This document shows positions 1-26,900 of a DNA stretch of 64,000 nucleotides, piece after piece. The notes beneath the pieces are model-generated. The model saw only the letters and a program-made list of their open reading frames with translations, had not been told where the DNA came from and searched no databases. Origin of the DNA: Euglena gracilis (taxonomy: Eukaryota); NCBI GenBank assembly GCA_039621445.1, contig CP154954.1:10807521-10871520 (forward strand), in the 5' to 3' direction. The number at the start of each line of letters is the position of its first letter. Within the stretch, counting starts at the first letter, position 1. Position numbers and translations under genes: made by a program.

Positions 1-399
1 TTTCGGGGGGTCTGGAAATGACGATGACCGAAATACCGTCCCCTTGTAATCCTGCAATACTTCATCCCTCAACTTGGCCACCCGTTCATCCTCTTTTTGG
101 TCCTCCCCCTCCCTTGCAATTATCATTTGGTTGATAACTTGCACTGGGGGGTCACTTCCCTCCAAATTTCTGGCAACCTCCCCCAAGTCCTCGTCACTCA
201 AAAAGTGCAATTCCTGGTCCAACCCTTCCAAAGGCAAACAAAGACCACGTTTTTGCAACCCACACGAAGACCCCTCCGCCGCAGTCACACTGTCCACTGA
301 AAAATTTGTGTCATCCTGAATTTTTGTGGACCCCTCCATCTTTCAACACCCCGCAAAAAAACCAGGTCGGGGCTGTCTTTCACCAACGCCTTGTGGTGT

Positions 400-740
400 G
401 GAAAAATTCACAGTTTTGCCTCCGCCAACCAAGGATTAGAAAGAATTGCCTCAACTTTGATGTTTGCCTCATGAAATTCAACCTCACATTCCACACACTC
501 AGGGTCCCTTTCCTCATTCCAGCTTTGTTGAAGGATCATTTTCACCTTAGCACATCTGCTCCCCCCCCGTCAAAGTTTGCCCATTGGCAGTTTCAAACCT
601 TAACGGGTCCTCAGCAAGATACACTAGGTGGTCCCCTATCAACCCTTGTCGAATGAGGTTTGTCCTCGTGTCAATCAAAATTCGGGCTGTTTTCTCCTCC
701 CCATTTGCCAACCGTATCTGTGTTTTTAACAGCAGTTGTC
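400..740 (-). pseudogene. Retroviral-type aspartic protease domain (degenerate)
   Basis: QLLLKTQIRLANGEEKTARILIDT(R)TNLIR...PLRFETANGQTLTGG, then after a frameshift ...VEAILSNPWL. This matches the retropepsin D-T-G and ILG-x-x-W-L motifs, with the catalytic motif damaged. Confidence 0.8.
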
Positions 741-859
741 TGTCCTCCCCAAGTTTCTTCGCTCCTCCCCGAGTTTTTGTCCCCCTCAACGTGCTTTTTT
801 CAGCCACACCAATTTTCTCTTCCCTGGGGCTGCCCCCCCCCCCTGGGAGGGTTGCCTTC

Positions 860-1026
860 TATCGATCAACAAGGCCCACACCCCCCAACGGGTACCCCTC
901 AAAATACTCCCATCATCCTCAGACAACTTTGTCCCCTTGGGAAAATAAATCTTTTTGACAGCCGTAGCCAACAGATTTTTAACCCACCTCCTACTCCAGT
1001 CTGGGCAAATACAAATTGCCCGACAC
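860..1026 (-). pseudogene. C-terminal half of an N6-adenine DNA methyltransferase domain
   Basis: CRAICICPDWSRRWVKNLL...IYFPKG...RWGVWALLID. It continues the + strand piece ending ...EKLKNS at 1755 and fits the hhhhP-x-W-x3-W segment of Dam-like/DIRS-type MT domains. Confidence 0.7.
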
Positions 1027-1245
1027 GTCAATTTTCAGATTGGGGATACCAAAAACCAACCCCGATCTGGGGGAGTGAAAATCTGAGCAAGCTGCAGAAC
1101 AAACTCTGCGATGGCCAGACCTGCCCGAATTTTATTACTGAGGGGAGGAGTCACCGAGAAAAGCTGGGAGGGTAGGGAATATCAGTTGGCACCCAGAAAA
1201 AATGGAGGATGCCCAAGCAACTGGTGGATAATTTGTTAACCGTGT
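1027..1245 (+). pseudogene. C-terminal half of a C5-cytosine DNA methyltransferase domain
   Basis: (C)QFSDWGYQKPTPIWGS...KLCDGQTC...HREKLGG, then after a frameshift KKWRMPKQLVDNLL. It continues the - strand piece that ends ...VHVDY at 1757. Confidence 0.75.
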
Positions 1246-1269
1246 TGGAACAAAAAAGCGGATAACGTG

Positions 1270-1529
1270 ACCCCCCCCCCCTATTTGTCCCCCCCCCCTA
1301 ATTGGCCAGAGCCCAGGTGGCCAATTAGGGGGGGGGGGGTTACTCATTTCAAGGGAAAATGCCTTTATTCGGGTGTTTTACGGGGGTTCGCGACTATGAA
1401 GGACGGGGTCCAAGTGGCCAATTAGGGGGGGGGTAGGGGTAACCCCCCCCCTAATTGTCCCCCCCCCCCCTAATTGGCCAGAAGGGGGGTCCGGGCCGCC
1501 CGGAGGGCGGCCAAATAGGGGGGGGGGGT
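1270..1529. mobile_element. MITE-like insertion between the two methyltransferase domains
   Basis: Ends acccccccccccctattt ... aaatagggggggggggt are inverted repeats; internal ctaattggcca/tggccaattag repeats. Confidence 0.6.
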
Positions 1530-1539
1530 GTTGGTAGGG

Positions 1540-1757
1540 TTATGCTCTTAGGAAAGTTTGAATGGATGAAATTGAGAAAGAATTTCAGGTTACGCAGAAA
1601 GGGATTGTTTTGCAACCAGCCAAAATGCCAGGTGTGAAAAGTTTTGTGGTGCGGATGATGATGGCATGAAAAAGGAATGGGGGGCGGACGAAACGTTGTT
1701 GATGAACCCCCCCTGGACTTTGTGGCCTGAGGTGGCTGAAAAATTGAAAAATTCCAA
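1540..1757 (+). pseudogene. N-terminal half of an N6-adenine DNA methyltransferase domain (NPPW catalytic motif)
   Basis: RDCFATSQNARCEKFCGADDDGMKKEWGADETLLMNPPWTLWPEVAEKLKNS: D-x-FA-x3-N, a conserved W, and NPPW at 1705-1716, as in phage Dam-like and DIRS MT domains. Confidence 0.8.
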
Positions 1758-1995
1758 TAATCAACATGGACAAAAGTCAGATTTTGAACACCGGGTCTTT
1801 TCCGCAAAAGCCCATGAAAGGGATTCTCACTCCACCACAACTTTGGTTTGAAATATTCGACAATTTCCAAAGTTTTTTTGACCAGCCAATCTGCCCCCTC
1901 CAAATTTCTGACTCCCAACGTTTTCGCCACGGTATATTCTGTACATGGCAACCCCGCAGCGATGATCTGAAAATATCCGGGGGGGGGACCTCCAA
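1756..1995 (-). pseudogene. Central catalytic part of a C5-cytosine DNA methyltransferase
   Basis: GYFQIIAAGLPCTEYTVAKT...ADWLVKKTLEIVEYFKPKLWWSENPFHGLLRKR...VHVDY: motif IV PC at 1948-1943 and motif VI ENP at 1828-1820. SAM-binding motif I is not in the window. Confidence 0.85.
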
Positions 1996-2014
1996 TATCT
2001 CAAGGCGATGCAGC

Positions 2015-2713
2015 TACCCCCTACCAAAAATTGAAGACATTTTGGTCAAACATGGAGCAAACCAAATGTTTTCGATTATCGATTTGAAGCAAGCTTTTCA
2101 CCAACAACCCTTACACCCAGAAAGCCGACCCATAACGTGTTGTTCCCCCAAAGGCATTTTTCAGTGGAGGGTAAATGTAATGGGTTTGACGAATGCCCCC
2201 CAACAATTTCAGCAAATGATCGATGACCGTTTGACACCAGTAAGTGATATAGCCACAGGGTGCATAGACGACATACTGGTACACATGAAAAAGATTTCAG
2301 GAGGGTGTTGGAAGTGCTCAAAACAGAACATTTGGAGGCTGGTGAATTCAAAGCCAAACTTTTTGTGGAGGAGGGTGAATTTGTGGATAGATTTTAGGAA
2401 ATGGGACTAGGAGGCCAGCACCGGGTAAGTTACGAGCGATCGAAAAGTGGGAAGTTCCAAAAAATTACGGCTTTGAGGGCCTTTTTGTGATTCACAAATT
2501 ATTACAATGCACACATTCACATGTATGTGGAAGTAGCTGCCGATTGCAAGACAAATTGAAAGTCCCCAGGGAGCTGGGAAAGAAAGGAAGTCGAAAACCT
2601 GCGGAATTTGATGGGGCGGATTTAAAAGCTTTTGAGGAGCTGAAAAAAAGGTTGTGTTCGGGCCTAATGTTGCAACGAGTAGACCCAGATAAACTCTTTG
2701 TGCTAAGGGTTGA
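2015..2713 (+). pseudogene. Ty3/gypsy reverse transcriptase plus connection/start of RNase H (degenerate, truncated)
   Basis: YPLPKIEDIL...FSIIDLKQAFHQ...MGLTNAPQQFQ...CIDDILV (YxDD mutated to CIDD at 2261-2272), later AFEELKKRL...LFVLRVD; frameshifted. Confidence 0.92.
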
Positions 2714-3894
2714 TCACATCCTGGGCTGTGGGTCTTCCTCTCCCCTCCTTCATTTGCTCTACTAACGTTGCCCCCACGGCGTACCCACTGGCATGAGAAA
2801 AAAACTGTGCCAGTGGCCTTTCTGTCTCAACACCGGGGGGGGGGGGGCCAACTGTACTGCCAACCCCCCCCCCTCAAAATCGGCCAAAAAACCAGCACCG
2901 AAGGCGCCGGAATTTTTTTAAAGGCCTTTTTTTTGGTCTAAAAAGGCCATTTTTGGTGTCAAAATTTCATCTGTCTCGGGGGGGTCGGCACTGGGGGGGG
3001 GGGCGAAAATCCCAACTGAAACCGTGTTTGGGCCGATTTCGAGACTTTAAAAGTCTTAAATCTTTGCCCAAAACACGGTTTCAAACAAGAACAGTGTTTT
3101 GGGCCAAGGTTTTAGGGGGGCCCAGGGGCTCCCCCTAACTCTTGGCCCAAACACAGTTCTTGACACAGTACAGGGGGGGGGGTCCCCCAAAAACCCCAAC
3201 TGTACTGCCGTCGCCCCACTGGTACCACGCTTTCCTACCCAGTTGGTAATCCTACCCAGTTGGACTCCTTGCTGCTGCATAACTCGGTCCAGGCGGAAGT
3301 TGGGGCTTTTAACGTTGATTGGTTTCTCCACAGCTTCCTTATGGTTGGTCTGCGTTGCTTTGTGGTTGACTTTTGGTGGACACGAACAATGGCTGGCCGA
3401 TGGCTGCACCGGGCTATCCTTTGCAGCCTTCTTCTTTGCTTCTTTGGAACATGTTATATCAAACAAGGTTGATTTCAAAATTTGTAATTTTTTATTCAGA
3501 CTTTTGTTGCTGTCATGCAAGGAGACTCTCTCCCCCCCTTTTTTTGTTTGGAGTTACTTTTCCGTGAGCAAATGAAATTCCTGGATCTATTTTTGACAAG
3601 TTTCGAAAAATAGCCACATATTACACTGGTAGCCACCCAACTTGTAAACCCGGGGTTTATGGGATCTGTTTTGGTTAGCCAAAGGTTTATAAATGGGGTG
3701 TTAATAAGTCAAGGAATTGTCGGTGAAAACCTGACCCCCCAACATGACCCCCAAATCCACCGAAATCGGCAGTTTTCGGTAGATTTGGTCAAAAATGATG
3801 ATGGTGATGGTCGGCCGCAAAAAAAAAATGCCAAAAATGAGTTTTCGGGTGGTTTGCGGCTGAAAAAGTCGTCCCTGGCGGGGGGTTGCTATAT

Positions 3895-4174
3895 CCTGGG
3901 GGGGGGGGGAGTGGGGGTCGACCGAGAGCGACCATGGTCGCTCTCGGTCGATCTCAATCGTGGGCCTGTGAATGTCAAAAAGTGTTTAACCGGGCAAATT
4001 GCCGCAACATACAAGCAAAAGGCGTTACACACACAAGGGATTTTGTTATTTTAGGGCCCTGGAACAGTTGCCTACGCCGCTACATGGCAAAAAAGGTGAA
4101 AAAAAATCCCGGTAGGAATCACCCATAGCGACCGAGAGCGACCATGGTCGACCCCCACTACCCCCCCCCCCCAG
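3895..4174. mobile_element. Small inverted-repeat element (MITE-like)
   Basis: cctgg(g)n agtgggggtcgacc at the left mirrors ggtcgacccccacta(c)n cagg at the right; internal palindrome cgaccgagagcgaccatggtcgctctcggtcg. Confidence 0.55.
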
Positions 4175-4703: not shown

Positions 4704-6360
4704 GTGCCAAACGGTAGACTGGGGGGGGGGTAGTGGGTAGTCGGCCGACTAGTCGACCGACTAGTCGGCCGACCAATTGGGTATTCGGCCGACTAATTGG
4801 TCGGCCGACTAGTCGGCGGACCAATTGGGTAGTCGGCCGACTAGTCGGCCGACAACCCCGACTAGTCGGCCGACTACCCACTCTAATGTATTAACGGGTC
4901 AAAACCGCCGACTTTTAAGCCCCCCCTCCGGGAAATTTTTTTTTGTCTAAATCACCTCAACACCAGTCAAAACCCACCCAAATGGCTCCAGAACCCCCCA
5001 AGCGGGGGTGAATATGCAAAAAAATTGGGGAAAATGTCCATTTTGGGCCACTTTTGACAAAAGTACACCTCCCATTGAATTTTCAATGTAAGTCAAAATT
5101 TGCACAAAAAAAGGTATTATCCCTCCAAGTCTATTGCCAATATAGAAGGGATTTTGTTATTTGAGGGGGGGGTGCGGGGGGGGGGGGCGGAGCCCCCCCC
5201 CCCCCCCGCCTATGCCAAAGTGAGCCACAAGAACGACTTAGCCCCCGAGTATGTTGCCAACACAGAAGGGATTTTGTTATTTGAGGGGGGGTGTGGGGGG
5301 GGGGGGGGCGGAGCCCCCCCCCCCACCTATGCCAAAGTGAGCCACAAGAACGACTTAGCCCCCGAGTATGTTGCCAACACAGAAGGGATTTTGTTATTTG
5401 AGGTGATGCATGCAGATTGCAGATTGCATTTCTAAAGGATTTTAATGTACCATGCCCCCAATGCCCACCCCCCCCCCCCCCCCCCCCCCCAATGCCCCCC
5501 CCAACCCCCCCTGCCCCCCACCCATCCCCACCCCCCCCCCCCCCCCCCCCACCCTCCACCCCCCCCCGAGCTATTCCCGTCCCCGGGACCCTTTACGGCC
5601 CAATGGGAACAGTACGGGGGGGGGGGAACAGCTCGGGGGGGGGGACCTAGGTCCCCCACCCCAAGCTATTCCCATACCCGACCCTCAGGCAACCCAAAAG
5701 GGGTCATTTTTGGCAACTTTTTGGATGTAAAAAAAAAAGGTCAATTTTGAGCACATTTGCCAAAAGGTGATTTTTGAAAATGGTCCAAAAACGTCGATTT
5801 TTGACCACTTTCTTAGGAAGTTCTTTATAAAAAGTGCTATGACAGTGAGCTATTCCCGTACCCCCAATGGGAATAGCTCGGGGGGGGGGAATAGCTCGGG
5901 GGGGGGAATAGCTCGGGGGGGGGGGGATGGTAATCCCTGTTTCATCATTGGTTTTTTACCCCTCCGGACCCCCATCAAGGGCCCACCGACCCCCCACTGA
6001 CCAAAGATTTCCATCTGGGGGTGTTTATTTTAGGCGTAAGACACTTATTTGGACCCATCCGGACCATTTCCGGGTGATTTGGGCCCACCACAGACCATTT
6101 TTATGACCGCCGACTAGCCACCGACTAGTTTGCGTTGGATTTTGTTCATGGGGGGGGAGCTTAAAAATCGGCGGTTTTGACCCGTTAGTACATTAGAGTG
6201 GGTAGTCGGCCGACTAGTTGGCTGACTGCCCACTACCCCCCCCCCCCCTGTCTCGCCGACTAGCTACCGACTAGGCCTAGTCGGCGGACCAATTGGGTAG
6301 TCGGCCGACTAGTCGGCCGACTACCCACTACCCCCCCCCCCCCAGTCTACCGCCTTGCGC
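4704..6360. mobile_element. Non-autonomous Mutator-like (MULE) DNA transposon with long TIRs and nested repeats
   Basis: 11-bp direct repeat ccacatcctga at 4693-4703 and 6361-6371. About 200-bp imperfect TIRs (cggtagactgg(g)n tagtgggtagtcggccgactag...actctaatgtattaacgggtcaaaaccgccga, with the reverse complement at ~6150-6360). G...C termini. Contains a ~120-bp tandem repeat (~5130-5403) and a nested gagctattccc/gggaatagctc element (~5550-5930). Confidence 0.75.
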
Positions 6361-21223: not shown

Positions 21224-23911
21224 TCACGGCACCACAGCATTCAGCACCACGCCGTCCTCCACGAACGCCTTGATGACCCGCACAGCCTCCAGCGCCGTGG
21301 CGTCTGACAGAGGCGCGATGCGAGAGAGCGATGCGGCACCCCTCACGTAGGCTACCACCCCCGACGCGACCATGCACTCGCCTGGCCTCGAAAACATTGT
21401 ACAAAAGTGTGCAAAAATGCGCAGAAATGCACAAAAAAATGCACAAGAATGCGTACTTTTTGAAGAAAAAAAATGCGCAAAATGCTCCAAATTTTGAGAG
21501 AAAATGTGCAAAAATTATATGAAAACGTACGTAAAACCAATATACAATAATTGTATTTTAATTTTAACCAAACAAAAATTTTTAAAAATTTTTTGACCAA
21601 TTAAATTTTTTTAAAAAATTTTAACCAATTTACATTGCATGGAATCATGAGGAAAATTTCAGTTTCAAAATTCTTTAAAATTTGCAAAAAATTGCAAAAG
21701 TGGTAAAAAAAAGCGAAAAAAATTGTAACAATCACGAAAAAATGTGTTTCCAAAAGCAAAAAAAAAATGTGTTTGAAAAAATTGAATTTTTTTTGCACAA
21801 AAAAACGCAAAAATGCGGAAATATGCGAAACACATCCATCTTTGCTGTCACCACACAGGCCCACCAGCGTTGCACCCGGACGACTTGTTAGCAGGCCGGA
21901 CAATTGCAAGAACCCCAACAATTTCCCGGGTTGCGTCTCATAGGCATTTCAATGGATTTTGACCCTGTGCAGTCTGGGGGATCGTCTACTGCATTGCGAC
22001 ACAAATAAACACCAGTCGCGGAATGCCACAAAACACCCACACAATCCTGCTGCGCACAACCAAGAGAACTCACTTTGAAAATGACATAAAACTGGACACA
22101 AACACACACCACATCTACACACCCACGCACCCACACAACACACGCACTGCACATGCAAACGCACACACACACACACGCGCGCGCGCACACACACACACAC
22201 ACAACACACAACACACACACCACACACACACACACATACAACACATAAAGAACACACAATGCGCAAAATGCACAACACACAACCACCCACCTTGATAGAC
22301 ACACAACCCCAATCCACCAGCACCCACACACCCTGGGCCTGCTCAGTGGCGGCCCCGATGTGGTGGGTGATGTACACGTTGGGGTGCTCTGCGAGGGCGG
22401 AGCGGAACTCCCCGGCCCCACCGGCAGGCTCGCCCTGGAACACGTCCAGCCCTGCGCCAGCGGGGGGGTTTGCAACACCCTGAGACGCTGTTTGAAATTG
22501 TTTGAATCTCAGATGCTCTTCACAAACACGTGGACTTAGTTGACGCCGTGTTACCCGCCCCCCTCGTCCGACGGGGTTCCCTCACCCTGTGACCAGGTGG
22601 GGGGGGGGTCGTAACACCCCCATGACCTGCAACCTGTGACCGGGGGGGGTGGTCGTAGGTAAAATGGTCTTAAATTTTTCGCAACCTGCAACCTGTGACC
22701 GGGAGGGATGGTCATAACACCCCCATGACCTGCGACCTGCAACCTGCGACTGGGGGGGGGTGGTCGTAAATGAGGGGTGGTCGAACGACAGGGGGGGGGG
22801 GGGTAGTCTCAGAAATACCCACTGTTAAGGCTTCAAAAAAAGATTGACTTTGGACCTTTGCGCAAATGAACTATTTGAGTGGTTCCTTTGCGTGCAACTG
22901 CACAAAGCACCACTCAAAAAGTCCCAACAATGTCCATCGAGAGGGGGACAGCGCTTTGGACCCCAGGCCACAGCTCTCCCAGTCCCGACTGGTCTTCAAG
23001 AGGCTGCTATTGAGGGCCGCATCCTGGAGATTTCCTGAAGGTGCAATGTCTGACTGGCTCACACACACACCAATGCCCACCCAACCACACGCACACACAC
23101 AACACACACACAACCACACACACACACACACACACACACATGCACATGCGCACACCCACACCCACACACCCAAACACCCACATCCACACCCACACCTACA
23201 ACCCCCACCCCCCCACCCGCCCACACACACTTTGGGATATTTGGCCATCTACAATTTTGGTATGCCAGTCAGGTAATTTTTTTAAGTTGGAAAAAGCTCC
23301 CCCCCAAGGGGGTGGGGGTCCAGAAAGAATCGAACCCGGCTGCCAGTCTGGACCTGGGTGGGACCCGAAAACAGGCAAAAAACCCAAATACAGTTCAGTT
23401 GTCCTTTTTTTGGGCCAAAATTTTGAGGTGAACCCACAAAAAAATACCAAAAATGGCCATTTTTCCAAAAAAAAATTCGGCGCTTTGTACCAAAATTCTT
23501 CCGGGTCCACTCGTCTTCGCTGGGCCCCTTTGTGTGGATGCATGTACGGGATCGAATTAAAATACCTGTATTATTAAAAAATAAAAAAGAAATTTAATTA
23601 AAAAAATATAAATAATTTTTGGCCCGAAAAATCCACAACGTAAGAAGACGGAGACCGGCTCGGATGCCCTTCTCCCGCAGGGCCCACAGCAGGGCTTCCT
23701 CGTCCACCACGGAGCCCCGCGTCGTGTTCAGGAAGAGGGCCCCCGGCCGCAACGCCCGGAAGAAGTCCCAGCCCGCCAGCCCCGCCGTCTCCGTGTTGGG
23801 CGGCACAGCCCGGCCCGCACGGCCTCCGCGACGGCGGCCAACCCGGTTGGCTGCCCAGCGGCCTACCCGGAGCCGTGAGCGTGAAAAGCTGCAAATCGAT
23901 GGACTTTGGCG

Positions 23912-23945
<34 letters not shown>

Positions 23946-26900
23946 CTCCGGCGCCTGAGGCACCGAGGGGCAACTTTCAGCCAATTTTGGCCGGCTGAAC
24001 CCCCCCCCCCCCGCCCCCCCTGTATCAGACACAACCACGGGGGGGGGGGGGTAAGAACGGTTGGGTTGGGGCAAGGATTTAGGTTCAAATATAGGCTGAA
24101 TTTATCCCTGATTGACGTGTCGCCCCGATTCCTAAGTTTGACTGAGCGGGACTGAGCAGTCCCAGAAACCCCGGGTGGTGGCTGTCGACAACCTCCAACC
24201 CCATTCTGGCAGTTGGAGGGGCGGTCCGATCACCCTTCGCCTCGCGCTTCAATTACCCCCCCCCCCCAACCCCCCGGTCGACCTTCCTTGCCTTGTCTTG
24301 CTGTCAGACCGCCCCGATTCCCCCTCCCCAGCCCACCACCCCACCCAGGGTGGGTGGGTGGGTGGGGGCCTCTCCCCCCTGGGGGTTGAAAATAAGCAAT
24401 CTTTCGGCCCCTGGTCGGATTTCGAGATTGGGGGGGGGGGGGCTGAAGCCACAAAAATTTCACAAAAACTTCGAATTTCCGTGCCAATGATGAGGGATTG
24501 AAGACATGTTTATTTTTTCCCCTGTGGACGAGAAATGCGCCGTATTGCGTTCCTCGTAGGGACCTGTCGACAACCAAGGTAATGAGCATGTCGCCATCCA
24601 CAGGTTTATCGACGAAAAGAGTTTAAATTTACGAATTGGTTTGAAATTACCTTTGTGTTATTTTGTATTTCCAATGGATTTTATTAATCTTTAAATTACC
24701 ATTAATTATTCTTTTTTCAAAATAAGTTTGCAGCCTTCACTCCCCCACTCCCCCCGAGGGGTTCCCACCAGTTTGACAGCCCAGGTTGCCCAGGCAAATT
24801 TCCCTCGAAAAATGCCATTATAAAAAGGGGGTCCTCAATCGAGGATGAAAATATAATCCAAAAAAATTCAATAAGATTTTCGTCTTTTTCAATGAAAGAA
24901 CTGACAAAAAAAATGTGAAAAAAATGGAAACAAAATCAGCCAGTACAGAACCATACTAAAATATAGGTGAGCGGGCACAGAAGACAGAGGTGGGGAGACT
25001 GGTACAATTGAAAACCATTGTTGTTACTTCCAATGAGGTTGCAGTTAGCAATATTTTCCGAAATATGATTTTGTTCATCGCGGGTTTAGACGACATTCCA
25101 ACCTGTTTCACACAGGCTGCAAATGCAAACAAAAATGCAAATGCAAAACGTGGGAAAAAGTCATCACCTCAAGCGGTCTGCAGCTCTGAGAGAAATGAGT
25201 CTTGGTGGGGGGGGATTCCTTCGAGGCCAGGGCCCTGGCCGGCTGCGACGTGCAGCGTCACGACGTGTGCGTCGGCGGCCACAGCCAGCGGGGAGTGGCG
25301 GAAGCCGACTGCCTCCAGGCGGATTTCCTGTTGTCCCCGGGGGCCACCCAGCCTTCTTGTTGAAACCGACCCAGGGTTCCACGCTTTTGTTCTTCTGTCC
25401 GAAATCTGGAATGTGCTAATGTTTTCTGCCACTTTGAGGATGACACAAAATGGAAAAAAATGCAACTTTAAACTTTAATAAAAAACACAAAAATAATAAT
25501 TTAATAAATTTAATAATATTTCAAATTTATTCAAATAATAATAATAAATTGAAAACCAATTTAAATAATAATTTAAGAAAAAACTTTAAAACTTTAAAAA
25601 ACAGAGGAATCTGAAAGGGAATGGCGGCACAAAAGAGGCACTCCGAGTTGTTTGGGACCCTGGGTGCCGACAGCAGATATCAGGGATGCTGCAGTCCACC
25701 CTGAAACAAGCCGTGCCCGACAGAATTCTCCGTTGAAGAAACCCAGTGCTGGGGACATGGACAAGTTGGTTGGCCATGCATCTCTCTGTTGAGATCTGGA
25801 CCCCGTCAGCGCCGAGCCCATGGACGCCAACCCCCTATGCCTACGAAAGGCAGAGGACGTTCCCCCCTGGCCTTCAGCAAAGCAGCCTGGTCCCAAGCTT
25901 TGCAGCCGTCTCTGCAGTTAGAGACCTGGGCAGAGACCGGAATGCAGAATGCAGCCAGCTGTGAGCTGTGAAATCCGAAGGAGCGAGGTCCCGCCTCGGC
26001 CATCCTCGCAGATCTTCCATTCAGGAACTAAAACCAGCCCCCCCCACCCCCCAATGCCAAGGAGGATTGTGGACAAGGCATTTGCCGATTTGGCGACCAT
26101 GGGGAGAGCTCACGAGCAACCTGACGCAATGTCACCCACACAAGTTGTTTTGAGACCTGGGTTGATATCATCTTGACAAATCAAAAGCCCCAAGGTATGC
26201 TGATATTTTCCAAAAAAAATAACTATCAGTTTCCAGTGATGGGCTGTCACCGACGCCTTGTCACCGACATCTTGTCACTGACGTCTTCTCACCGACGTCT
26301 TCTCACCGACGTCTTGACCACCAACGTCTTTTCACCGACGTCTTCATAGATTCACTTAGTCGTTTCCCGGGGGGGCACTTTTTTCCTGGGACCCCAACCC
26401 ACCCACCCACTCTTGGAAACACCCCCAGGGGAGGCTTTAAAATGAATCTACAATTGCGAACCCTTATGCCAAGACCTGATGGCGACAATTTCGCATGGGG
26501 CTGCTTCTTTGCTCTTGTTTGGGCAAAAAAATTCAGGAAGGGGGGACTGTTGTTGGAGGCTGTCAAAAATGTGAAAATTGGGGGAAGATTGGGAAAATTG
26601 ACATTGGTTTTGGGCTTTACTCCAAATGTGGCGGGAAGCAATGGCACTGAAGGAAGAATTTCATTATAGAAATACCTTTCATTGGTTAAACAAATCTATC
26701 AGCAAAATATACACAGAACCTTCCACTGAAGAGCTCAGCAATTAATGAATATAACTGATTGCAACTTCTCAAGCCAATGCGGTGGAAGAGAAATGAAGGG
26801 GACAAAGCAAAAGGTGAAGAAAGATTGTGGAAATTTGAAAAACTTGCAGATCTCCCCCCACAAACACATTCACGTGCATATGTGCTGCTGAGATGGAGCA

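What the first reader, a model, noticed from the sequence alone, without database searches (positions are those of the whole stretch)
400..2713. Ty3/gypsy retrotransposon encoding both a C5-cytosine and an N6-adenine DNA methyltransferase upstream of protease-RT
Seen: a C5-MTase (PC at 1948-1943, ENP at 1828-1820, VDYCQFSDWGYQKPT, WRMPKQLV) and an amino-MTase (DCFA...NARC...W...NPPW at 1705-1716...ICPDW...W) sit next to a retropepsin and a gypsy-type RT. Re-inverting 1027-1755 gives the colinear order C5-MTase, N6-MTase, protease, pre-RT linker on one strand. Known: Dam-like MT domains are typical of DIRS elements, and cytosine MTases have been reported in retrotransposons of the dinoflagellate Symbiodinium and the alga Klebsormidium. 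I do not know of a protease-bearing gypsy element with both activities in tandem, nor of one in euglenids. Inference: this family may methylate its own cDNA at both C and A (self-marking, or evading host restriction or silencing) and could contribute to host 5mC/6mA. This copy is dead.
Basis: partly seen in the sequence, partly recalled or inferred. Interest (0 to 1): 0.92.

Follow-up and report, generated by a model that had tools for sequence, protein, structure and literature searches.

The report
Dead dual-methyltransferase gypsy retrotransposon copy
This is a broken, internally inverted copy of a gypsy-type retrotransposon family that carries both a cytosine and an adenine DNA methyltransferase domain ahead of its protease, a kind of element already described in Euglena in a 2026 preprint.

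Summary
On the minus strand, 1999->1 carries a C5-MTase fragment, a Dam-like N6-MTase, a retropepsin-like domain and the pre-RT linker. It is interrupted by an inversion of about 1027-1755 and a palindromic insert at 1265-1529. With both undone in a script, one environmental protein (P0003, Pfam DNA_methylase + Dam in one ORF) aligns in a single frame across every junction (E 5e-75). Contigs and RNA reads of the same organism show the un-inverted and insert-free forms.

Relatives of the C5 piece reach Pfam PF00145's cut-off, and a model folds like DNMT3/M.HaeIII. The RT-RNase H piece at 2001-2713 (+) is a separate truncated fragment, not this copy's RT. This copy is dead.

The novelty claim fails. 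A May 2026 bioRxiv preprint (10.64898/2026.05.21.726589) describes Euglena gracilis LTR retrotransposons with DAM plus DNMT ("EpiLTRs"). Enzyme activity remains unshown.

Two side observations are absent from that preprint's main text:
- DNMT, DAM and protease occur in many different orders in related ORFs.
- Stand-alone relatives of this DNMT sit on capsid-bearing, virus-like contigs.

The parts
1756..1999 (-). C5 cytosine-MTase fragment, first part (motif IV PC at 1948-1943, ENP at 1828-1820). The N-terminal AdoMet motif I region is missing; the copy is cut at about 2000.
   Evidence: 885 relatives at E<=1e-3; matches family DNMT HMM positions 49-194 of 197 (199 bits) together with the next part. 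Relatives reach PF00145. Fold of relative P0003 matches DNMT3/M.HaeIII.
1027..1264 (+). C5-MTase fragment, second part (QFSDWGYQKPT, CDGQTCPN, WRMPKQLV), lying in the inverted segment; one in-frame stop.
   Evidence: C5b follows C5a directly in 69 of 150 relatives; the loose end before 1029 in X13 reads as the reverse complement of 1756 onward.
1027..1755 (.). Segment inverted relative to the family arrangement (breakpoints about 1023-1031 and 1752-1758).
   Evidence: joints 'opposite strands' 1025<->1758 (5, 5 and 3 contigs in X1, X4, X13, plus 4 RNA reads in X21), 1023<->1757 (1, 1, 0 contigs) and 1031<->1752 (1, 1, 1); one-frame alignment after re-inversion.
1265..1529 (.). MITE-like palindromic insert (C-run/TAATTGGCCA/G-run units) between the two MTase domains.
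   Evidence: inverted repeats, for example 1318-1339 / 1459-1480 100% complementary; 4 matches against 0.01 expected. table 5c: a contig joins 1264 to 1529 with one letter between.
1567..1755 (+). Dam-like N6-adenine MTase, first part (DCFA, NPPW at 1705-1716).
   Evidence: PF05869 29.6 bits (cut-off 28.1); family DAM HMM positions 9-101.
861..1026 (-). Dam-like MTase, second part (ICPDW ... RWGVWAL), with a frameshift in a C-run near 833-842.
   Evidence: family DAM HMM positions 71-125 (39.7 bits). P0031 131-182 and P0149 358-413 align here.
405..759 (-). Retropepsin-like domain, active-site motif degenerated to DTRT (672-661), with one frameshift.
   Evidence: family PR HMM positions 4-119 in two frames; 48% identity to the PR of P0027. 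Relatives have DTGA; hhalign to RVP_2-positive proteases gives E 3e-4 and 8e-4.
1..342 (-). Pre-RT linker of the same copy, open to the window edge.
   Evidence: matches L004 1923-2030 (47% of 36 aa), which lies between L004's PR and RT.
2001..2713 (+). Separate truncated RT-RNase H fragment of a related gypsy-type element, frameshifted.
   Evidence: RVT_1 44.3 bits; 67% identity over 107 aa to the RT of L030 (a DNMT-PR-RT-RH-INT locus); loose ends and record ends at 2001.
2714..2793 (-). Small inverted piece of the RNase H of that second fragment (ASGYAVGA on the minus strand).
   Evidence: translation; joints 2712<->2794 (5, 5, 3 contigs) and 2714<->2792 (5, 1, 2 contigs, 1 RNA read) on opposite strands.

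Best explanation
Window 1-1999 (minus strand) is a dead copy of a very abundant Ty3/gypsy-type retrotransposon family. Its polyprotein reads ...C5 cytosine-MTase, Dam-like N6-adenine MTase, retropepsin, linker, RT... In this copy:
- the MTase N-terminus is cut off at about 2000;
- a 0.73-kb segment (about 1027-1755) has been inverted;
- a palindromic MITE-like element has landed between the two MTase domains;
- stops, frameshifts and a ruined protease motif have accumulated.

A second, oppositely oriented RT-RNase H fragment of a related element abuts it at 2001.

Shown here: the domain identities by profile and fold, their linkage in one reading frame in relatives, and the un-inverted order in other copies of the same organism.

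Inferred, following the preprint's model and not tested here: in intact family members the two MTases are released from the polyprotein and mark the element's reverse-transcribed DNA or its new insertion. 6mA would draw in the host's maintenance enzyme AMT1 and permissive chromatin. 5mC would let the copy match a host genome in which CpG methylation is the default.
For: - Window pieces: Pfam Dam and RVT_1 are above cut-off.
- C5 piece: 885 relatives. PF00145 at or above cut-off in 13 of 25 scanned. A profile of 25 relatives hits DNMT1 structures (best 3pt6_A, E 3.9e-5; 19 of 20 PDB hits are DNMT1).
- Fold: the AF2 model of P0003 has pLDDT above 90 over most of residues 1-170 (lower at 171-190). 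Its best Foldseek hits are DNMT3B/3A (E 5.5e-9), M.HaeIII and DNMT1.
- Conservation: PC Cys, ENP Glu and other columns are invariant across 25 diverged relatives.
- Linkage: P0003 carries DNA_methylase (27.1 bits) and Dam (45.5 bits) in one 298-aa ORF in the window's order. P0009, P0015 and P0037 show the same order, and 11 of 162 proteins have both domains.
- Colinearity: a single-frame alignment across all junctions after re-inversion.
- Same organism: contigs from 3 DNA runs and 4 RNA reads show the un-inverted junctions and the insert-free form, and the family has thousands of laid contigs.
- Gypsy type: the related loci L003, L004 and L030 read DNMT-PR-RT(-RH-INT).
- Literature: the preprint 10.64898/2026.05.21.726589 reports Euglena LTR elements with DAM + DNMT and a higher share of 6mA-methylated DAM-LTR insertions in E. 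gracilis.
Against: - The window's own C5 pieces and protease give no Pfam hit. Protease relatives reach only sub-threshold Pfam scores.
- No LTR, integrase or chromodomain is visible for this copy, and there is no second copy in the 64 kb.
- None of the 80 metagenome loci has a DAM, so the tandem is a subset feature.
- The order of the modules differs among relatives, so 'the' family architecture is not uniform.
- Activity is unshown. The preprint's E. coli assay for eukaryotic DAMs was negative, and it found LTR expression in E. gracilis low or undetectable.
- Only 55 RNA reads at 80% likeness or more were laid, none at 99% or more.
- Whether the inversion exists in the organism or only in the assembly was not settled.
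Confidence: 0.85

Rival explanations
1. The two MTase domains are real family parts but do not methylate the element's double-stranded DNA. They would act on RNA:DNA hybrids or RNA, or serve as binding modules, so the self-marking idea is wrong.
For: The preprint reports no rise in 6mA when eukaryotic DAMs were expressed in dam-deficient E. coli, and notes that eukaryotic DAMs lack the CD-1 and TR-1 parts of bacterial Dam. The C5 domain is short (about 200 aa), and its usual QxRxR motif VIII (recalled from general knowledge, not from a call) reads KPTR.
Against: Catalytic signatures are kept across diverged copies: PC, ENP and NPP[WFY]. The preprint finds a higher share of 6mA-methylated DAM-LTR insertions in three species.
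Confidence: 0.25
2. The juxtaposition is a chance pile-up of fragments of different elements (a DNMT-bearing one, a DAM-bearing DIRS and a gypsy) at this locus.
For: The region is a mosaic with two inversions, an insert and a foreign RT fragment. The preprint itself warns of nested insertions and assembly artefacts in E. gracilis.
Against: The same DNMT-DAM order lies in single uninterrupted ORFs from unrelated assemblies (P0003, P0009, P0015, P0037). The junctions C5a-C5b, C5b-Dam and Dam-Dam-PR are each seen in independent contigs of the organism. A one-frame alignment crosses all junctions.
Confidence: 0.03
3. The inversions at 1027-1755 and 2714-2793 are assembly artefacts, not features of the organism's DNA.
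For: No listed contig was shown to cross 1026/1027 or 1755/1756 colinearly at high identity. Only about a third of the stretch's 31-mers were found in any run. Two inversions within 3 kb is unusual.
Against: Breakpoints are clean at codon level, and the copy carries many private substitutions (table 3), as expected of an old decayed locus. Nothing positive shows an artefact.
Confidence: 0.25

Closest known systems
Euglena gracilis 'EpiLTR' / DAM-LTR elements (bioRxiv 10.64898/2026.05.21.726589, May 2026; main text read, figures and supplements not seen)
   Same: An LTR/gypsy-type retrotransposon carrying both a DAM-like adenine MTase and a DNMT. It occurs in a host with heavy CpG methylation and shows mixed or chimeric architectures.
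   Different: The preprint's elements also have a chromodomain, which cannot be seen in this truncated copy. The main text does not give the order of domains, so I cannot say whether DNMT-DAM directly upstream of the protease is the published layout.
Cymbomonas tetramitiformis EpiLTR (same preprint) and the relatives P0152, P0153 and P0160 found here
   Same: A gypsy/chromovirus-type pol with a DNMT of the same sequence family.
   Different: There the DNMT is appended after integrase at the 3' end of pol (PR-RT-RH-INT-SH3-DNMT). In the DNMT tree that group is a separate clade (SH-aLRT 96) from the clade of DNMTs placed before RT (SH-aLRT 98).
DIRS retrotransposons with a Dam-like MT domain
   Same: The same Pfam family (PF05869) and the NPP catalytic triplet. 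The preprint derives LTR-borne DAMs from DIRS.
   Different: DIRS elements use a tyrosine recombinase and have no protease. Relatives here have a DDE integrase (rve, Integrase_H2C2) and a DTGA protease.
DNMT-bearing retrotransposons of Symbiodiniaceae and Klebsormidium (de Mendoza et al. 2018, PMC5890265; abstract seen)
   Same: A C5-MTase captured into a retrotransposon.
   Different: According to the 2026 preprint those are DNMT3-type or a separate SymbioLINE type, and they carry no adenine MTase. The preprint places the Euglena/Cymbomonas DNMT as sister to DNMT4.
Stand-alone small C5-MTases on capsid-bearing aquatic virus-like contigs (L010, L011, L039 and others)
   Same: The same compact DNMT with the GYxKPTR[IF]W signature, at 31-42% identity to P0003.
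   Different: No RT, PR or DAM nearby. 11 of 80 loci carry a double-jelly-roll-type major capsid gene (Capsid_N, 35.5 bits in L011).

Membership tests
C5 cytosine DNA methyltransferase (Pfam PF00145) | Profile match at or above the curated cut-off | tested here: inconclusive
   The window pieces give no hit at E<=1. 13 of 25 relatives scanned reach 22 bits or more, for example P0001 33.0, P0078 31.4, P0031 29.1 and P0003 27.1. A family profile hits DNMT1 structures at E 3.9e-5.
C5 cytosine DNA methyltransferase (Pfam PF00145) | Motif IV Pro-Cys (catalytic Cys) and motif VI ENV-type Glu | tested here: met
   PC at 1948-1943 and ENP at 1828-1820. Cys and Glu are invariant in 25 relatives.
C5 cytosine DNA methyltransferase (Pfam PF00145) | Motif I FxGxG AdoMet-binding loop | tested here: not met
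   Missing in the window copy: the family HMM match starts at position 49 of 197 and the copy is cut at about 2000. It is present in relatives as LDLFSGTGS.
C5 cytosine DNA methyltransferase (Pfam PF00145) | DNMT fold | tested here: met
   Tested on relative P0003, not on the window copy. AF2 pLDDT is above 90 over most of residues 1-170 (81-83 at 171-190). The best PDB matches are DNMT3B/3A (E 5.5e-9, TM 0.46-0.49), M.HaeIII and DNMT1.
C5 cytosine DNA methyltransferase (Pfam PF00145) | Methyl transfer to cytosine C5 | not testable with these tools
Dam-type N6-adenine MTase (Pfam PF05869) | Profile match at or above the curated cut-off | tested here: met
   Window 1576-1851 (+): 29.6 bits against 28.1. 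P0003 scores 45.5 bits.
Dam-type N6-adenine MTase (Pfam PF05869) | Asn-Pro-Pro-aromatic catalytic motif | tested here: met
   NPPW at 1705-1716. Relatives read NPPF and NPPY.
Dam-type N6-adenine MTase (Pfam PF05869) | Adenine methylation activity | not testable with these tools
   The preprint reports a negative heterologous assay for eukaryotic DAMs.
Ty3/gypsy LTR retrotransposon | Gypsy-type RT followed by RNase H | tested here: met
   This holds for the separate + strand fragment only: RVT_1 44.3 bits, RT_RNaseH_2 17.9 bits (below cut-off). Relatives P0016, P0152 and P0160 have both domains above cut-off.
Ty3/gypsy LTR retrotransposon | Retropepsin with D-T/S-G-A upstream of RT | tested here: inconclusive
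   The window motif is DTRT (672-661). Relatives have DTGA but only sub-threshold Pfam aspartyl-protease hits. hhalign to RVP_2-positive proteases gives E 3e-4 and 8e-4, probability 24-38%.
Ty3/gypsy LTR retrotransposon | DDE integrase downstream of RNase H | tested here: inconclusive
   Not in the window. It is present in the related locus L030 and in P0152, P0153 and P0160.
Ty3/gypsy LTR retrotransposon | Flanking long terminal repeats and target-site duplication | not tested
   The copy is cut at about 2000 and runs off the window start. No whole genome is held.
EpiLTR (preprint 10.64898/2026.05.21.726589) | DAM and DNMT in one LTR-type element | tested here: met
EpiLTR (preprint 10.64898/2026.05.21.726589) | Chromodomain in the same element | not testable with these tools
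   The 3' part of this copy lies outside the window. A Tudor/chromo-like stretch was seen only in the INT-DNMT type relatives, below cut-off (P0117 18.6 bits, P0153 16.3 bits).

The most novel reading that the evidence does not exclude
Within one clade of gypsy-type elements the DNMT, DAM and protease modules have been reshuffled into most possible orders while keeping one open reading frame. The orders seen are DNMT-DAM-PR, DAM-DNMT-PR, DAM-PR-DNMT, DNMT-PR-DAM and PR-DNMT-DAM, plus DNMT after integrase in a sister clade. In addition, the compact DNMT module came from small capsid-bearing DNA viruses of protists rather than from a cellular DNMT. That would amount to a virus-to-retroelement capture followed by unusually free intragenic module shuffling. 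Neither point is in the main text of the 2026 preprint; its supplements were not seen.
Probability: 0.3. Interest if true: 0.6.

Novelty: already known. Interest (0 to 1): 0.3.

Why it matters
Retrotransposons that carry their own writers of both 5mC and 6mA could set, rather than merely suffer, the epigenetic state of their insertions. That bears on how methylation landscapes such as the heavily CpG-methylated Euglena genome arose.

That idea is now in print (preprint, May 2026), so this window adds only one decayed example. What it adds is modest:
- codon-level evidence that the DNMT-DAM tandem sits directly upstream of the protease in this family;
- evidence that relatives are widespread in environmental assemblies;
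- two leads, module permutation and viral kin of the DNMT, that a specialist could follow.

Tried and rejected
- Whole-genome search: no genome is held for this window. I could not collect full-length copies, LTRs, integrase or chromodomain of this family in its own genome.
- Word-indexed protein search with the C5 piece, longer proteins only: nothing. The exhaustive HMMER search then found the family.
- Earlier-findings look-ups by sequence, by genome and by words: nothing.
- Second copy inside the 64 kb: none.
- Rfam scan of the window: no match, so no help with the organism.
- An apparent alignment of P0016 residues 34-214 to 2269->1703 (-): I judged it a gapped over-extension of the true 1975->1745 match. 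The extra part would overlap the + strand RT and shows no MTase motif I.
- DAM in the 80 metagenome loci: none at E<=0.1.
- Organism identity: not pursued beyond noting that the runs carry a coded label.
- RNA: too few reads (55 from about 5% of one run) to say more than that related copies are transcribed at a low level.
Full report
**1. What is in the sequence**

On the minus strand, reading from 1999 downwards:
- A C5-MTase-like stretch carries PC (1948-1943) and ENP (1828-1820) and ends in VDY at 1764-1756.
- From 1026 downwards come the second half of a Dam-like domain (ICPDW ... RWGVWAL) and a retropepsin-like stretch whose active-site motif reads DTRT (672-661).
- A linker ending in ...LQDYKGTVF... 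then runs off the window start.

On the plus strand between 1027 and 1755 lie:
- the continuation of the C5-MTase (QFSDWGYQKPT ... CDGQTCPN ... WRMPKQLV);
- a 265-bp block of C-run/TAATTGGCCA/G-run palindromes;
- the first half of the Dam-like domain (DCFA ... NPPW at 1705-1716).

From 2001 to 2713 the plus strand holds a frameshifted RT-RNase H fragment.

**2. Profile tests on the window itself (nine pieces)**

| Piece | Pfam family | Score | Cut-off |
|---|---|---|---|
| First Dam half | Dam PF05869 | 29.6 bits | 28.1 |
| RT piece | RVT_1 | 44.3 bits | 29.6 |
| RNase H piece | RT_RNaseH_2 | 17.9 bits | 29.8 (not reached) |

The two C5 pieces, the second Dam half, the protease and the linker pieces gave nothing at E<=1. 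The adenine-MTase and RT calls therefore stand on the window alone. The cytosine-MTase and protease calls needed relatives.

**3. The C5-MTase call**

- An exhaustive HMMER search with the 81-aa piece 1756-1999 (-) found 885 proteins at E<=1e-3 and 283 at E<=1e-10. The best is 64% identical.
- I scanned 25 of these with Pfam. 13 reach the PF00145 cut-off of 22 bits (for example P0001 33.0, P0078 31.4, P0031 29.1). Nine more have weaker hits, and three (P0032, P0084, P0149) have none.
- An alignment of 25 relatives keeps motif I (LDLFSGTGS), PC, ENP, VDYCQFSDWGYxKPTRIW and a C...C...H...LGG tail, with the catalytic Cys and the Glu invariant.
- The profile of that alignment hits DNMT1 structures: best 3pt6_A at E 3.9e-5, and 19 of 20 PDB hits are DNMT1.
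- An AlphaFold2 model of P0003 has mean pLDDT 80.8 and pLDDT above 90 over most of the DNMT part; the DAM part is below 50. It matches DNMT3B/3A (E 5.5e-9, TM 0.46-0.49), M.HaeIII and DNMT1.

The family is a compact C5-MTase. The window copy lacks its first ~48 profile positions, including motif I.

**4. The inversion and the linkage**

Three lines of evidence agree.

(a) Database proteins. The match to the first C5 piece is followed directly by the match to the second in 69 of the 150 best hits. The other 81 show only the first piece.

(b) One protein carries both domains in the window's order. P0003, a 298-aa ORF on a 2.4-kb ENA contig, has DNA_methylase at 27.1 bits and Dam at 45.5 bits. 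I re-inverted 1027-1755 and removed 1265-1529 inside a script. P0003 residues 50-292 then align in one HSP and one frame, 47.5% identical over 244 aa, E 4.9e-75. This alignment crosses the C5a/C5b, C5b/Dam and Dam/Dam junctions. Family HMMs I built cover DNMT positions 49-194 of 197, DAM 9-125 of 125 and PR 4-119 of 120; DAM and PR each carry one frameshift.

(c) Public runs of the same, coded organism (three DNA contig sets and one RNA read set, laid at 80% likeness or more):
- 'Opposite strands' joints appear at 1025<->1758 in 5, 5 and 3 contigs and 4 RNA reads, at 1023<->1757 in 1, 1 and 0 contigs, and at 1031<->1752 in 1, 1 and 1 contigs.
- A loose end before 1029 reads as the reverse complement of 1756 onwards.
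- A contig joins 1264 to 1529 with one letter between, so that copy lacks the insert.
- Contigs run colinearly across 488-905, from Dam end to protease.

Other copies are therefore un-inverted and insert-free. The family is very abundant: 16,362, 19,056 and 6,495 contigs were laid on 3 kb.

I could not show whether the window's inverted arrangement exists in the organism or only in the assembly. Also, its listed records do not settle it.

**5. The neighbouring RT**

- The RT-RNase H piece (2001-2713, +) is not the RT of the minus-strand copy. It is on the other strand and upstream of the MTase. Records and RNA loose ends break at 2001.
- It is nevertheless kin. It is 67% identical over 107 aa (RT) and 53% over 109 aa (RNase H) to metagenome locus L030, which reads DNMT-PR-RT-RH-INT.
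- Its RNase H contains a second small inversion. ASGYAVGA lies on the minus strand at 2793-2714, and joints 2712<->2794 and 2714<->2792 on opposite strands are seen in several contigs.
- No integrase, chromodomain or LTR of either fragment is in the window, and there is no second copy in the 64 kb.

**6. Gypsy type**

- Relatives with long ORFs show PR-RT-RH-INT (Integrase_H2C2, rve, SH3_Tf2-1). Loci L003, L004 and L030 show DNMT-PR-RT(-RH-INT).
- The protease is divergent. Relatives have DTGA but only sub-threshold Pfam aspartyl-protease scores.
- hhalign of 17 aligned proteases against two RVP_2-positive proteases gives E 8e-4 and 3e-4, with probability 24-38%, aligned on the D-T/S-G-A motif.
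- I file the protease as retropepsin-like, not proven.

**7. What is known**

- A full-text search found bioRxiv 10.64898/2026.05.21.726589, dated 22 May 2026. I read its abstract, Results, Discussion and Methods. Figures are not held and supplements are closed.
- It reports DAM-bearing LTR retrotransposons in several eukaryotes. It also reports 'EpiLTRs' in Cymbomonas tetramitiformis and Euglena gracilis that combine DAM, DNMT and a chromodomain. It places the Euglena/Cymbomonas DNMT as sister to DNMT4.
- It notes chimeric architectures, possible nested insertions and assembly artefacts in E. gracilis. It reports a higher share of 6mA-methylated DAM-LTR insertions, low LTR expression in E. 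gracilis, and a negative E. coli assay for eukaryotic DAMs.
- A search for 'EpiLTR' finds only this paper.
- The phenomenon is therefore already described.

**8. Mechanism**

Shown: domain identities, conserved catalytic motifs, and linkage in one frame upstream of protease and RT.

Inferred, following the preprint's model:
- The MTases are cleaved from the polyprotein and mark the reverse-transcribed DNA or the new insertion.
- 6mA recruits host AMT1 and permissive chromatin.
- 5mC lets the copy blend into a CpG-methylated genome.

Nothing here tests activity. The rival reading, that the domains act on hybrids or RNA or are non-catalytic, keeps about a quarter of the odds. The window copy itself can do nothing: its MTase is truncated, and it carries an inversion, an insert, stops, frameshifts and a DTRT protease motif.

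**9. Beyond the finding**

Module order. HMMs built from the hits were run on 162 proteins, namely the 150 best hits plus 12 cluster members.

| Order of modules | Proteins |
|---|---|
| DNMT alone | 129 |
| DNMT>PR | 9 |
| DNMT>DAM | 4 |
| PR>DNMT | 4 |
| DAM>DNMT | 3 |
| RT>RH>INT>DNMT | 3 |
| DAM>PR>DNMT | 1 |
| DNMT>PR>DAM | 1 |
| PR>DNMT>DAM | 1 |
| DAM>DNMT>PR | 1 |
| DNMT>RT>RH | 1 |
| INT>DNMT | 1 |
| RT>RH>INT (no DNMT) | 1 |
| RT alone | 1 |
| None of the six models | 2 |

All are within single predicted ORFs of environmental contigs, so chimeric assembly cannot be excluded.

DNMT tree. This was a quick tree of 68 rows. I kept 25 of 67 DNMT-only proteins at random. Only 18 of the 80 loci passed a filter of 165 or more profile positions with no stop.
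- All 21 DNMTs that lie next to PR, DAM or RT, together with 4 retro loci, fall in one clade (SH-aLRT 98).
- The after-integrase DNMTs fall in another clade (SH-aLRT 96).
- Stand-alone DNMTs from metagenome loci fall outside the PR/DAM/RT clade, except L001.

Viral kin. Of 80 metagenome loci, 75 show only the DNMT. 11 carry a gene like the L011 capsid gene (Pfam Capsid_N, 35.5 bits). This points to small double-jelly-roll DNA viruses as kin of this DNMT. These are leads, not conclusions.

**10. Verdict**

This is a decayed copy of a known, recently described kind of element.

Noticed in passing
window 2714-2793 (with 2001-2826): There is a second small inversion, inside the RNase H of the + strand RT-RH fragment. 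The DAS-type motif (ASGYAVGA) is on the minus strand, and the frame resumes on the + strand after 2794 (VPVAFLSQ). Contigs of three runs show the un-inverted joint (2712<->2794, 2714<->2792).
   Followed up: partly
proteins P0003, P0031, P0032, P0105, P0149, P0016, P0117 and others: DNMT, DAM and protease modules occur in at least five different orders upstream of RT within single ORFs, and the DNMT also occurs after integrase. Only 11 of 162 proteins carry both MTases. Assembly chimeras are not excluded.
   Followed up: partly
L010, L011, L012, L016, L018, L020, L023, L029, L034, L039, L041: Stand-alone relatives of the retroelement DNMT lie on low-GC aquatic metagenome contigs that also carry a major capsid gene (Pfam Capsid_N in L011). 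This suggests polinton-like, virophage-like or giant-virus kin of the DNMT module.
   Followed up: partly
window 1265-1529; similar G/C-run bounded blocks at about 2826-3200, 3890-4170, 4730-4880 and 5160-5660: The region is peppered with short palindromic elements bounded by long C and G runs (for example TAATTGGCCA cores and GACTAGTCGGCCGAC palindromes). The one at 1265-1529 is absent from other copies of the retrotransposon.
   Followed up: partly
window 21949-22581 (-) and 23594-24229 (-): Two exon-like stretches of a host gene of the D-isomer-specific 2-hydroxyacid dehydrogenase family match Pfam 2-Hacid_dh_C at 37.6 and 18.1 bits, on consecutive profile positions 99-147 and 147-178. They are separated by about 1 kb of intron-like sequence rich in TG/CA repeats.
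   Followed up: partly
protein P0031: A DAM-PR-DNMT-linker protein is filed in NCBI as a hypothetical protein of the carnivorous plant Genlisea aurea, on a 2.5-kb contig. It may come from a protist in the plant's traps rather than from the plant; this was not tested.
   Followed up: no
window 5079-5435: A direct repeat of about 120 bp (units ending in ...GGGATTTTGTTATTTGAGG) is flanked by very long C and G runs. Similar 'GGGATTTTGTTATTT' words also occur near 4040.
   Followed up: no
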